Below, in pieces: positions 1 through 3,000 of a stretch of DNA of 64,000 nucleotides. Where the stretch lies: NCBI RefSeq assembly GCF_016026235.1, contig NZ_CP065613.1; one strand, 5' to 3'. Position numbers: made by a program. The DNA is from Escherichia coli. GTDB lineage: Bacteria > Pseudomonadota > Gammaproteobacteria > Enterobacterales > Enterobacteriaceae. Each line of letters opens with the position of its first letter. The first letter of the stretch is position 1.

Positions 1-3000
1 AGGGCTATGCTTATAGCGATAATCATACTGATGAGAGAGGGAAAGTCATGGATCAGGCGCTACTGGACGAGGGTTATCGCTGTTATACCGGCGAAAAGAT
101 CGATGTCTATTTCAACACTGCGATATGTCAGCATTCTGGCAATTGCGTACGTGGCAACGGCAAGTTATTTAATCTCAAACGAAAGCCGTGGATCATGCCG
201 GATGAAGTCGACGTCGCCACTGTGGTTAAAGTGATTGATACGTGCCCGAGCGGCGCGCTGAAATACCGTCATAAATAAGCGAGGGTAAAATGGAAATACG
301 CGAAGGCCACAATAAATTTTACATTAATGACGAACAAGGCAAGCAAATCGCTGAAATTGTCTTTGTGCCGACTGGAGAGAATTTAGCGATTATCGAACAT
401 ACCGATGTCGATGAAAGCCTGAAAGGGCAGGGGATTGGTAAACAGCTGGTTGCAAAAGTCGTGGAAAAAATGCGTCGGGAAAAACGAAAAATTATCCCAT
501 TATGTCCATTTGCGAAACACGAATTTGATAAAACGCGGGAGTATGATGATATTCGTAGTTGATGGAAGAGTACAGAGCCACGATATTTTTCATGCTCTCC
601 GCGGAGTGATGCAGGAGAGCATCTGAAGGGTCGGGGGATGCACAAAGAATGGGCAGAGAGCGCGTTTTTTTGTCCCAAGTCATCCCCTTTACTGAGCAAA
701 AAAAAGAATATCTCCTATATGAGAATCATCAATCGGGGTTAATAAGTTTTGCGTCCCCAGAGCGTTCAATATTGATAGGAGTCATATTATGGAAGGTAAA
801 AACAAGTTCAATACTTATGTTGTTTCTTTTGATTATCCATCATCTTATTCCTCAGTGTTCTTAAGGTTAAGATCATTGATGTATGATATGAATTTCTCCT
901 CTATCGTGGCTGATGAATATGGGATACCACGACAATTGAATGAAAACTCCTTCGCAATAACGACATCGTTAGCCGCAAGTGAAATCGAGGATTTAATCAG
1001 GCTCAAATGCTTAGACTTACCGGATATTGATTTTGACCTCAACATTATGACAGTTGATGACTATTTCCGTCAGTTTTACAAGTAGCCAGGAAGGATAAGA
1101 AGAACATAAAAAATGGCACTATTCTCTAAAATATTAATTTTTTATGTGATTGGTGTGAACATATCCTTTGTCATTATCTGGTTTATCTCACATGAGAAAA
1201 CACATATTCGTTTACTTAGTGCATTCCTGGTCGGAATAACCTGGCCAATGAGTCTGCCTGTGGCATTACTTTTTTTTCTCTTTTAGGAGCTGTAGTTGAG
1301 TGGACCCGCTGGTTATCGTGAAACGAAGCGTCTCTCCTCAAAACTGGATTTGCGGAACGATGAACGAAGCAGTCGCCTGACTGCTTCGTTCATTAAAGTG
1401 AAAATTATTTCTGTGGGCGCATCGCCGGGAAGAGAATAACGTCGCGAATAGTATGACTGTTTGTAAACAGCATAATCATTCGGTCGATACCAATACCCAG
1501 ACCAGCGGTTGGCGGCAGACCATATTCCAGCGCAGTCACGTAATCTTCGTCATAGAACATGGCTTCGTCGTCACCTGCAGCTTTAGCGTTAACCTGTTCC
1601 TGGAAACGTTCAGCCTGATCTTCTGCGTCGTTTAATTCGCTAAAACCATTACCGATTTCACGACCACCGATGAAGAATTCAAAACGGTCGGTGATTTCTG
1701 GGTTAACATCATTACGGCGTGCCAGCGGTGACACTTCTGCCGGATATTCCGTAATAAAGGTTGGCTGAATCAGATGTGCTTCTGCCACTTCATCAAAGAT
1801 CTCCGTGACAATACGTCCCAGCCCCCAGCTTTTCTCTACCGTAATACCGATAGATTCAGCTAATTCTTTAGCAGCATCAAAATTATCCAGGTCGGCCATA
1901 TCGGTTTCTGGACGATATTTTTTGATTGCTTCGCGCATGGTGAGTTTTTCAAACGGTTTGCCGAAATCAAACACATGCTCGCCATAAGTGACTTTAGTGG
2001 TACCCAGAACCTCTTGTGCCAGGGTGCGGAACAGGGACTCTGTCAGTTCAATCAAATCGTGGTAATCCGCATACGCCATGTAGAGTTCCATCATTGTGAA
2101 CTCAGGATTATGGCGAACAGAAATACCTTCATTACGGAAGTTACGGTTGATTTCGAATACCCGTTCAAAACCGCCTACAACCAGACGTTTCAGATACAGC
2201 TCTGGCGCGATACGCAGATACATATCTAAATCCAGAGCATTATGATGGGTAATAAACGGGCGAGCAGATGCCCCACCTGGAATTACCTGCATCATCGGGG
2301 TTTCTACTTCCATAAAGCCGCGCGCGACCATGAACTGACGGATAGCGGCCAGAATTTTTGAACGGACAACGAACGTTTGACGGGATTTATCGTTAGCGAT
2401 GAGGTCCAGATAACGTTGACGATAACGGACTTCCTGATCCTGCAGACCATGGAATTTATCTGGTAAAGGACGTAGTGCTTTAGTCAGCAGGCGCAGCTCA
2501 GTACAGTGAATGGAAAGCTCACCCGTTTGCGTCTTAAACAGCGTACCGCGGGCACCGATAATGTCACCCAGATCCCATTTTTTAAACTGATCGTTATAAA
2601 CACCTTCTGGCAGGCTATCTCTTGCAACGTACAGTTGAATACGGCCACCGACATCCTGCAACGTTACAAAGGAGGCTTTCCCCATGATACGACGGGTCAT
2701 CATTCGGCCAGCAACCGAGACTTCAATGTTTAAGGATTCCAGTTCCTGGTTATTCTTCGCATCAAACTCTTCGTGCAACTGGTCAGAGGTATGGTCGCGG
2801 CGAAAATCATTGGGAAACGCCACACCTTGCTGACGTAGTGCCGCCAGTTTTTCGCGGCGATTTCTCAGTTCATCGTTAAAATCAATAGCCTCATTGGCTC
2901 CCCGTGTTTCTTGTTCAGACATTTTGGTTCCTCTAAATCCAGCTTTCAATTTAGCGTAGATAAAGAGACAGATCGGTACACTGTATTATCTGCCTCGACT

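What the first reader, a model, noticed from the sequence alone, without database searches (positions are those of the whole stretch)
789..1286. ghoS-ghoT type V toxin-antitoxin pair; the toxin gene is invisible to the ORF track
The 98-aa ORF matches GhoS. The following 57-codon ORF, found only by hand translation, encodes a two-helix hydrophobic peptide matching GhoT. In this system the antitoxin is an endoribonuclease that cleaves the toxin mRNA rather than binding the protein. The pair sits in an AT-rich islet directly beside lysU and is easy to lose in automated annotation because the toxin is under 60 aa.
Basis: partly seen in the sequence, partly recalled or inferred. Interest (0 to 1): 0.4.

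Follow-up and report, generated by a model that had tools for sequence, protein, structure and literature searches.

The report
Known E. coli ghoS-ghoT toxin-antitoxin pair

Summary
Both ORFs exist at the stated coordinates. Window 789-1085 (+) encodes a 98-aa protein identical to E. coli K-12 GhoS/YjdK (PDB 2LLZ; Pfam GhoS E 6e-41). Window 1113-1286 (+) encodes a 57-aa, two-segment hydrophobic protein that matches Pfam Toxin_GhoT_OrtT (E 4e-24) and is 56/57 identical to K-12 GhoT. Synteny is that of K-12 (yjdI-yjdJ-ghoS-ghoT, then lysU and dtpC on the other strand), with the same gene lengths and 27-nt spacer. The neighbour is LysU, not LysS. The locus is AT-rich (35% GC against 51% for the window). 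It is present in 5341 of 5426 complete E. coli genomes. One claim fails: NCBI's pipeline does not lose ghoT, since 39 of 39 evenly sampled genomes annotate both genes. New details are minor. The toxin carries S55F (T at 1276), which is absent from all 5056 matching complete genomes but on record in about 28 draft contigs. IS1 has hit this AT-rich locus independently at least three times in other strains, including an antitoxin-only disruption in a strain otherwise identical to the window. The mechanism (GhoS cleaves ghoT mRNA; GhoT damages the membrane) comes from the literature and was not tested here. Verdict: already known, low interest.

The parts
777..781 (+). Shine-Dalgarno-like AGGAG, 7 nt upstream of the ghoS ATG
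   Evidence: Read directly from the sequence. Function is inferred.
789..1085 (+). ghoS: 98-aa antitoxin (endoribonuclease GhoS/YjdK), stop codon included
   Evidence: ORF. Pfam PF11080 E 6.1e-41. 98/98 identical to PDB 2LLZ and to K-12 b4128, with only 2 synonymous DNA differences at 866 and 989. Annotated as ghoS in RefSeq. Catalytic R28 is present (sequence; importance of the residue from PMC4010927).
909..1011 (+). Three 5'-GCU (MqsR-preferred) sites within ghoS, starting at 909, 1001 and 1009; none in the spacer or in ghoT
   Evidence: Counted. Absence of GCU from ghoT mRNA is stated in PMC4344625. The absence is not statistically significant alone (P(0) = 0.10 by mononucleotide shuffle, 0.30 by codon shuffle).
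1086..1112 (+). 27-nt ghoS-ghoT spacer, identical to K-12; purine-rich (GGAAGGATAAGAAG) but without a well-spaced strong Shine-Dalgarno
   Evidence: Sequence. 0 differences from K-12. Co-transcription is inferred from the arrangement and from the literature's description of the pair.
1113..1286 (+). ghoT: 57-aa membrane toxin, stop codon included; two hydrophobic segments (about residues 4-26 and 33-57) separated by the polar loop S26-R33
   Evidence: ORF. Pfam PF10753 E 4e-24. 56/57 identical to K-12 b4559. Hydropathy profile. F38, whose F38R change gives the published ghoT F38R plasmid construct, is intact.
1276..1276 (+). T instead of C: codon 55 TCT to TTT, GhoT S55F, a rare natural allele
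   Evidence: 0 of 5056 complete E. coli genomes match the surrounding 61 nt exactly. The exact protein is on record in NCBI drafts on 28 contigs, against at least 1000 for the canonical protein. It is found on two haplotypes, L002/L003 and the K-12-like L004.
1359..1394 (.). Perfect 16-bp hairpin with a 4-nt loop between the convergent ghoT and lysU genes; probable shared transcript-end structure
   Evidence: RNA fold of 1284-1410: MFE -42.7 kcal/mol, z -3.6, 0 of 200 shuffles fold as well. It has no adjacent U-run, and the simple terminator scan did not call it. The terminator role is inferred.

Best explanation
Window 789-1286 is the chromosomal ghoS-ghoT (yjdK-yjdO) type V toxin-antitoxin locus of E. 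coli, orthologous to K-12 b4128/b4559. By the published model, the two genes are transcribed together with the antitoxin first. GhoS, a small Cas2-like endoribonuclease, cleaves the ghoT part of the message, so little GhoT is made. When the type II toxin MqsR is active it cuts at GCU sites, which ghoS has (three) and ghoT lacks. This removes the antitoxin message and leaves the toxin message. GhoT, a 57-aa two-helix inner-membrane peptide, then damages the membrane, lowers ATP and slows growth. What is shown here: gene identity, synteny, intact reading frames, retention of GhoS R28 and GhoT F38, and the GCU asymmetry. What is inferred from the literature: RNA cleavage, toxicity and MqsR control. 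The copy in this window differs from the reference only by GhoT S55F and two silent changes in ghoS.
For: The ORFs are at the stated coordinates. Pfam GhoS E 6.1e-41 and Toxin_GhoT_OrtT E 4e-24. GhoS is 98/98 identical to the solved structure 2LLZ. Gene lengths, 27-nt spacer and gene order are identical to K-12 MG1655, where the features are named antitoxin and toxin of the GhoTS system. The locus is present in 5341 of 5426 complete E. coli genomes and is annotated 'type V toxin-antitoxin system endoribonuclease antitoxin GhoS / toxin GhoT'. There are three GCU sites in ghoS and none in ghoT, as the literature states for ghoT (PMC4344625). The mechanism is described in PMC4344625, PMC4010927 (R28 catalytic, Cas2 homology, MqsR enrichment of ghoT mRNA) and PMC10714953. 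GhoT has two hydrophobic segments.
Against: Nothing contradicts the identity. The caveats concern function in this strain. S55F changes a residue that is S in nearly all GhoT variants and in the E. fergusonii OrtT paralogue, and its effect is unknown. No consensus sigma-70 promoter was found upstream of ghoS, and the intergenic hairpin lacks a U-tract, so the transcript boundaries are not established here. The absence of GCU from ghoT is not significant by itself (P 0.10-0.30). The primary papers (Wang et al. 2012, 2013) are not in the held library, so the mechanism is cited second-hand. The locus is dispensable in nature, as shown by IS1 insertions and a deletion.
Confidence: 0.95

Rival explanations
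1. The 57-codon ORF is a chance open frame in AT-rich DNA, and only ghoS is a real gene.
For: A 57-aa ATG-ORF arises in 16% of shuffles of the 601-nt AT-rich segment. The Shine-Dalgarno upstream of the ORF is weak.
Against: Pfam Toxin_GhoT_OrtT E 4e-24, 85 bits against a 22-bit cut-off. 56/57 identical to K-12 b4559. The frame is conserved across thousands of genomes, and a paralogue (OrtT) is 72% identical.
Confidence: 0.01
2. The locus is the ghoST orthologue, but in this lineage it is functionally weakened or decaying. S55F reduces GhoT toxicity, which is why a strain identical over the flanking 4.3 kb tolerates IS1 disruption of the antitoxin alone.
For: S55F is absent from 5056 complete genomes. 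Position 55 is S in almost all GhoT variants and in OrtT. L003, 100% identical to window 1-4286, has IS1 in ghoS codons 6-9 with ghoT S55F intact. The window comes from an IS-rich background with other disrupted genes, such as cadC.
Against: Position 55 is not invariant: A is also seen. S to F at the end of a membrane helix keeps it hydrophobic. The IS1 insertion is upstream of ghoT in the same operon, so it probably also cuts off ghoT transcription, and this alone would explain tolerance. L004 carries S55F with an intact ghoS on another haplotype. From my own knowledge, ghoS deletion mutants of K-12 are viable.
Confidence: 0.1
3. GhoS is chiefly a broader-specificity regulatory RNase, and antitoxin activity towards ghoT is only one of its effects, so 'dedicated TA pair' over-describes the locus.
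For: PMC4010927 reports that 20 transcripts were degraded upon GhoS production, including purE, purH, purM and purT. GhoS is described as stable and not autoregulatory, unlike classical antitoxins (PMC4344625). Natural strains exist with ghoT disrupted and ghoS intact (L008).
Against: The tight two-gene arrangement with a 27-nt spacer is conserved in about 98% of E. coli. GhoS does not neutralise the 72%-identical paralogue OrtT, which argues for specificity towards ghoT (PMC4344625).
Confidence: 0.1

Closest known systems
GhoS/GhoT (YjdK/YjdO, b4128/b4559) of E. coli K-12, the founding type V toxin-antitoxin system
   Same: Same locus: identical gene order, gene lengths and 27-nt spacer. GhoS protein is 100% identical and GhoT is 56/57 identical. 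The flanking genes yjdI, yjdJ, lysU and dtpC are the same.
   Different: GhoT S55F (window 1276), two synonymous changes in ghoS, and 7 substitutions in the 226-nt yjdJ-ghoS intergenic region.
OrtT (YdcX), orphan membrane toxin paralogous to GhoT
   Same: Same Pfam family PF10753. The E. fergusonii OrtT is 72% identical to the window's GhoT, with the same length and two-segment layout.
   Different: OrtT sits next to yncL with no GhoS partner. It is not neutralised by GhoS, and its mRNA has two GCU sites (PMC4344625). The window's gene has a GhoS partner and no GCU.
Cas2 (CRISPR-associated endoribonuclease)
   Same: GhoS is reported to be a structural homologue of Cas2, with five conserved catalytic residues, R28 being the most important (PMC4010927). 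R28 is present here.
   Different: There is no CRISPR context. GhoS acts on an mRNA as an antitoxin. The relation to Cas2 is structural and was not tested here by a fold search.
Aave_1720/Aave_1719 of Acidovorax citrulli (hybrid type II/V system)
   Same: The antitoxin has RNase activity that prefers the toxin mRNA (PMC10714953).
   Different: That antitoxin also binds its toxin, and the toxin is itself an RNase. GhoT is a membrane peptide, and the families are unrelated.

Membership tests
GhoS (Pfam PF11080; type V antitoxin) | Sequence membership of the GhoS family above the curated threshold | tested here: met
   138.8 bits against a cut-off of 21, E 6.1e-41, covering profile positions 6-93 of 94.
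GhoS (Pfam PF11080; type V antitoxin) | Same protein as the structurally solved, experimentally characterised K-12 YjdK/GhoS, including catalytic R28 | tested here: met
   98/98 identical to PDB 2LLZ and to b4128. R28 is present in the translation. The role of R28 is from PMC4010927.
GhoS (Pfam PF11080; type V antitoxin) | Sequence-specific endoribonuclease activity on ghoT mRNA | not testable with these tools
   Published for the identical K-12 protein (cited). The substrate here differs by one base (C to U at ghoT nt 164).
GhoT (Pfam PF10753 Toxin_GhoT_OrtT) | Sequence membership above the curated threshold | tested here: met
   85.1 bits against a cut-off of 22.1, E 4e-24, full-length match 1-55 of 55. 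56/57 identical to b4559.
GhoT (Pfam PF10753 Toxin_GhoT_OrtT) | Small peptide with two hydrophobic (transmembrane) segments; invariant family residues retained, including F38 | tested here: met
   Kyte-Doolittle 15-residue means reach 2.57 over residues 7-22 and 1.1-1.8 over residues 31-57, falling to about 0 around residues 23-37. All invariant columns F4, F10, I21, W23, F24, I32, L34, S36 and F38 are present.
GhoT (Pfam PF10753 Toxin_GhoT_OrtT) | Toxicity through membrane damage and ATP loss | not testable with these tools
   Published for K-12 GhoT (PMC4344625). The effect of S55F is unknown.
Type V toxin-antitoxin system (ghoST operon) | Antitoxin gene immediately upstream of the toxin gene on the same strand, at the conserved yjdJ/lysU locus | tested here: met
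   ghoS 789-1085, 27-nt spacer, ghoT 1113-1286. The layout is the same as K-12 and the annotated genomes.
Type V toxin-antitoxin system (ghoST operon) | MqsR-sensitive GCU sites in ghoS mRNA but none in ghoT mRNA | tested here: met
   3 against 0. This is consistent with PMC4344625, but the absence in ghoT has a chance probability of 0.10-0.30.
Type V toxin-antitoxin system (ghoST operon) | Co-transcription of the two genes; the antitoxin neither binds the toxin protein nor regulates the promoter | not testable with these tools
   Literature statements only. No promoter or terminator was confidently located here.
Anti-phage defence systems (PADLOC-DB) | Match to a catalogued defence-system protein model | tested here: not met
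   No PADLOC family at E <= 0.01 for either protein.

The most novel reading that the evidence does not exclude
The rare GhoT S55F allele, seen on at least two haplotypes, is a toxicity-attenuating or GhoS-cleavage-altering variant that makes the antitoxin dispensable. This would explain the sister strain in which IS1 has destroyed ghoS while ghoT S55F stays intact, and would make the lineage a natural example of a type V system being disarmed from the toxin side.
Probability: 0.08. Interest if true: 0.25.

Novelty: already known. Interest (0 to 1): 0.08.

Why it matters
It matters little beyond correct bookkeeping. ghoST is the textbook, and essentially the only well-characterised, type V toxin-antitoxin system, and this window holds an ordinary chromosomal copy. 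The useful outcomes are as follows. The hand-found 57-aa gene is real. Current NCBI annotation already captures it. This copy carries an uncharacterised S55F substitution. The AT-rich locus is a recurrent IS1 target, and one IS1 event is associated with deletion of the neighbouring cad region.

Tried and rejected
(1) NCBIfam gave no model hit for either protein, so the RefSeq names must come from other evidence. This is uninformative rather than negative. (2) The primary papers (PMC3514572, PMC3620836) are not held. I could therefore not retrieve the GhoS cleavage-site consensus to test whether C to U at ghoT nt 164 creates or destroys a site. A 2025 review only cites them. (3) The simple promoter and terminator scan of 500-1500 found no plausible ghoS promoter, only one 9/12 match inside yjdJ at 525-553, and no terminator. 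(4) I tested the GCU asymmetry as independent statistical evidence for MqsR control. It is not significant on its own. (5) I considered that the divergent 60-aa E. fergusonii protein P0065 might be a GhoT orthologue outside E. coli. Its context (yncL neighbour, no GhoS) shows it is OrtT. (6) I considered that the window might match a complete RefSeq genome exactly. The best is FDAARGOS_943 at 99.9% with different IS insertions. Draft assemblies L002 and L003 are the nearest, at 1 and 0 mismatches over 4286 nt. (7) I did not run structure prediction or fold search, because GhoS is identical to a solved structure. (8) PADLOC returned no hit.

Full report
OBSERVATION. The second ORF is listed only when the ORF threshold is set below the default 60 aa, so it is indeed invisible to a 60-aa ORF track. 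Length alone would not make it credible. In shuffles of the AT-rich 601 nt around it, an ATG-ORF of 57 aa or more appears 16% of the time, and one of 98 aa or more 0.6% of the time. Homology settles the matter.

IDENTITY. The 98-aa protein matches Pfam PF11080 (GhoS) at E 6.1e-41, and the 57-aa protein matches PF10753 (Toxin_GhoT_OrtT) at E 4e-24 over the full profile. GhoS is 98/98 identical to PDB 2LLZ, the NMR structure deposited as 'uncharacterized protein YjdK'. In E. coli K-12 MG1655 the same two genes are b4128 (ghoS, 297 nt) and b4559 (ghoT, 174 nt), with the same 27-nt spacer. They are flanked by yjdI and yjdJ upstream and by lysU and dtpC, convergent, downstream. Over the ghoST locus the window differs from K-12 by two synonymous changes in ghoS (866, 989) and one change in ghoT (1276). 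The neighbour at 1405-2922 (-) is LysU rather than LysS: 1130.8 bits to the heat-inducible enzyme 1E1O against 1018 bits to LysS 1BBU. RefSeq labels it generically as 'lysS'. The upstream ORFs are YjdI (Fer4_19) and YjdJ (GNAT).

SURROUNDINGS AND ANATOMY. GC content falls to 0.32-0.40 across 701-1300, against 0.44-0.49 on either side. It is 35.4% for 700-1300 and 50.8% for the whole window, so the 'AT-rich islet' is real. ghoS has a good Shine-Dalgarno (AGGAG at 777-781, 7 nt from the ATG). ghoT has only a purine-rich stretch at poor spacing. GhoT has two hydrophobic segments, roughly residues 4-26 and 33-57, separated by the polar loop SHEKTHIR. Between the convergent ghoT and lysU genes lies a perfect 16-bp hairpin (1359-1394). 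The 127-nt region folds at -42.7 kcal/mol, z = -3.6. The hairpin has no adjoining U-run and was not called by the terminator scan, which also found no convincing promoter upstream of ghoS. Transcript boundaries therefore remain inferred.

MECHANISM. The mechanism is taken from the literature, not tested here. GhoS is a stable, non-autoregulating antitoxin that works by specifically cleaving ghoT mRNA. GhoT is a membrane-lytic peptide (PMC4344625). GhoS is a structural homologue of Cas2, with five conserved catalytic residues of which R28 is the most important. MqsR cleaves ghoS mRNA and thereby enriches ghoT mRNA (PMC4010927). GhoS is described as a sequence-specific ribonuclease (PMC10714953). 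What I could check in the sequence agrees with this. R28 is present, and F38 of GhoT (the residue changed in the published ghoT F38R construct) is intact and invariant in the family alignment. ghoS carries three GCU sites (909, 1001, 1009), while the spacer and ghoT carry none, as stated for ghoT in PMC4344625. The absence of GCU from a 174-nt, 34%-GC gene has a chance probability of 0.10 by mononucleotide shuffle or 0.30 by codon shuffle. It is therefore consistent with the model but is not independent evidence for it. The primary papers (Wang et al. 2012, 2013) are not in the held library.

DISTRIBUTION AND ANNOTATION. The 851-nt region is found in 5341 of 5426 complete E. coli genomes, at full length in 5264, and at 95% identity or more. 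In a sample of 40 hits taken at even steps down the ranking, all 39 full-length hits have both 'type V toxin-antitoxin system endoribonuclease antitoxin GhoS' and 'toxin GhoT' annotated. With the word-indexed protein search, relatives of both proteins came only from Escherichia and Shigella. The 72%-identical E. fergusonii protein lies next to yncL with no GhoS and is the orphan paralogue OrtT. Neither protein matches a PADLOC defence model or an NCBIfam model.

WHAT IS SLIGHTLY NEW. (a) GhoT here ends LLFFLF instead of LLFSLF, because of a T in place of C at 1276 (S55F). None of the 5056 complete genomes that match the surrounding 61 nt is identical to it; all of the best hits differ by one base. 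The exact protein is on record in NCBI draft assemblies on 28 contigs, against at least 1000 for the canonical sequence, and is named GhoT. It occurs on the window's own haplotype (L002 with 1 mismatch in 4286 nt, L003 with 0). It also occurs on a K-12-like haplotype about 1% diverged (L004), so it is either recurrent or has been transferred by recombination. Position 55 is S in nearly all GhoT variants and in OrtT, though A also occurs, and it is not among the invariant columns. The effect of S55F is unknown. (b) IS1 has struck this AT-rich locus independently in other strains. One insertion is in ghoS codons 6-9 with a 9-bp duplication GTTCAATAC (L003, otherwise identical to the window; ghoT intact). 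One is at ghoS codon 6 and is coupled to deletion of everything from there to the middle of cadC, equivalent to window 805-8959: ghoST, lysU, dtpC, cadA, cadB and the cadC C-terminus, in FDAARGOS_1250. One is in ghoT codons 4-7 with the duplication at 1124-1132, in GZ2408C. The locus is therefore dispensable, and either partner can be lost.

RIVALS. A chance ORF is excluded by homology. A weakened system in this lineage (S55F attenuation) is possible but unsupported. The simplest reason an IS1 insertion in ghoS is tolerated is polarity on ghoT. A broader RNase role for GhoS has some published support, since 20 transcripts were degraded on over-production, but this does not change what the locus is.

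VERDICT. This is an already known, experimentally characterised, routinely annotated locus. Interest is low (0.08). The most novel reading not excluded is that S55F disarms the toxin or alters GhoS targeting (probability about 0.08, modest interest if true).

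Noticed in passing
window 8602-11443 (- strand); IS at 9502-10812: cadC is split by a 1311-bp IS4-like ISEc60 element with 28-nt terminal inverted repeats (9502-9529 / 10785-10812). The N-terminal CadC DNA-binding part (Trans_reg_C) runs in frame into the transposase (ORF 9767-11443), and the CadC_C1 part is in ORF 8602-9474. The transposase frame appears to stop early at 9767. ISEc60 is rare: 14 of 5426 genomes have a near-full copy, and FDAARGOS_943 has 38 places. Inactivation of cadC is, from my own knowledge, a known pathoadaptive theme in Shigella and enteroinvasive E. 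coli.
   Followed up: partly
L003 2.7 kb region (= window 806-814); L006 (= window 805-8959 deleted); L008 (= window 1124-1132): There are three independent IS1 events within about 330 bp of the AT-rich ghoST locus in other strains. One disrupts only the antitoxin, one only the toxin, and one is associated with an 8-kb deletion running from ghoS through lysU, dtpC, cadA and cadB into cadC. PGAP still calls a 58-aa 'ghoT' with a TTG start inside the IS1 end in GZ2408C.
   Followed up: yes
window 25826-25951 and 26062-26208 (+): ecnA-like (41 aa) and ecnB-like (48 aa) small lipoprotein ORFs, the entericidin antidote/toxin pair (identification from my own knowledge). Both are under 60 aa, so they too are invisible to a 60-aa ORF track. 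Not checked against family libraries.
   Followed up: no
window ~26.2-27.45 kb (- strand ORFs 26245-27111 and 27108-27416): A two-ORF insertion-sequence copy (102-aa and 288-aa ORFs), which I read from my own knowledge as an IS3-family orfA/orfB pair. It sits between ecnB and the guanidine-II riboswitch (27581-27627, Rfam 49.3 bits) that precedes the gdx/sugE-like ORF. It accounts for the roughly 5% of window 20001-45000 that is not collinear with most genomes, and it might separate the riboswitch gene from its native upstream region.
   Followed up: no
window 12063-12135 (-) and 42575-42870 (+): One tRNA next to the cadC/yjdC region (annotated tRNA-Phe at the equivalent place in FDAARGOS_1250), and three identical-scoring tandem tRNAs at 42.6-42.9 kb.
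   Followed up: no
window 563-788: The yjdJ-ghoS intergenic region is the most diverged stretch of the neighbourhood relative to K-12: 7 substitutions in 226 nt (3.1%), against 0.6-0.7% in ghoS and ghoT. This is where the unmapped ghoS promoter should lie.
   Followed up: no
L001 6019-6863 (FDAARGOS_943): The closest complete genome (99.9%) carries an IS5-family element between lysU and dtpC that the window lacks. It also lacks an exact match to the window's GhoT S55F, so the window comes from a related but distinct IS-rich lineage.
   Followed up: partly
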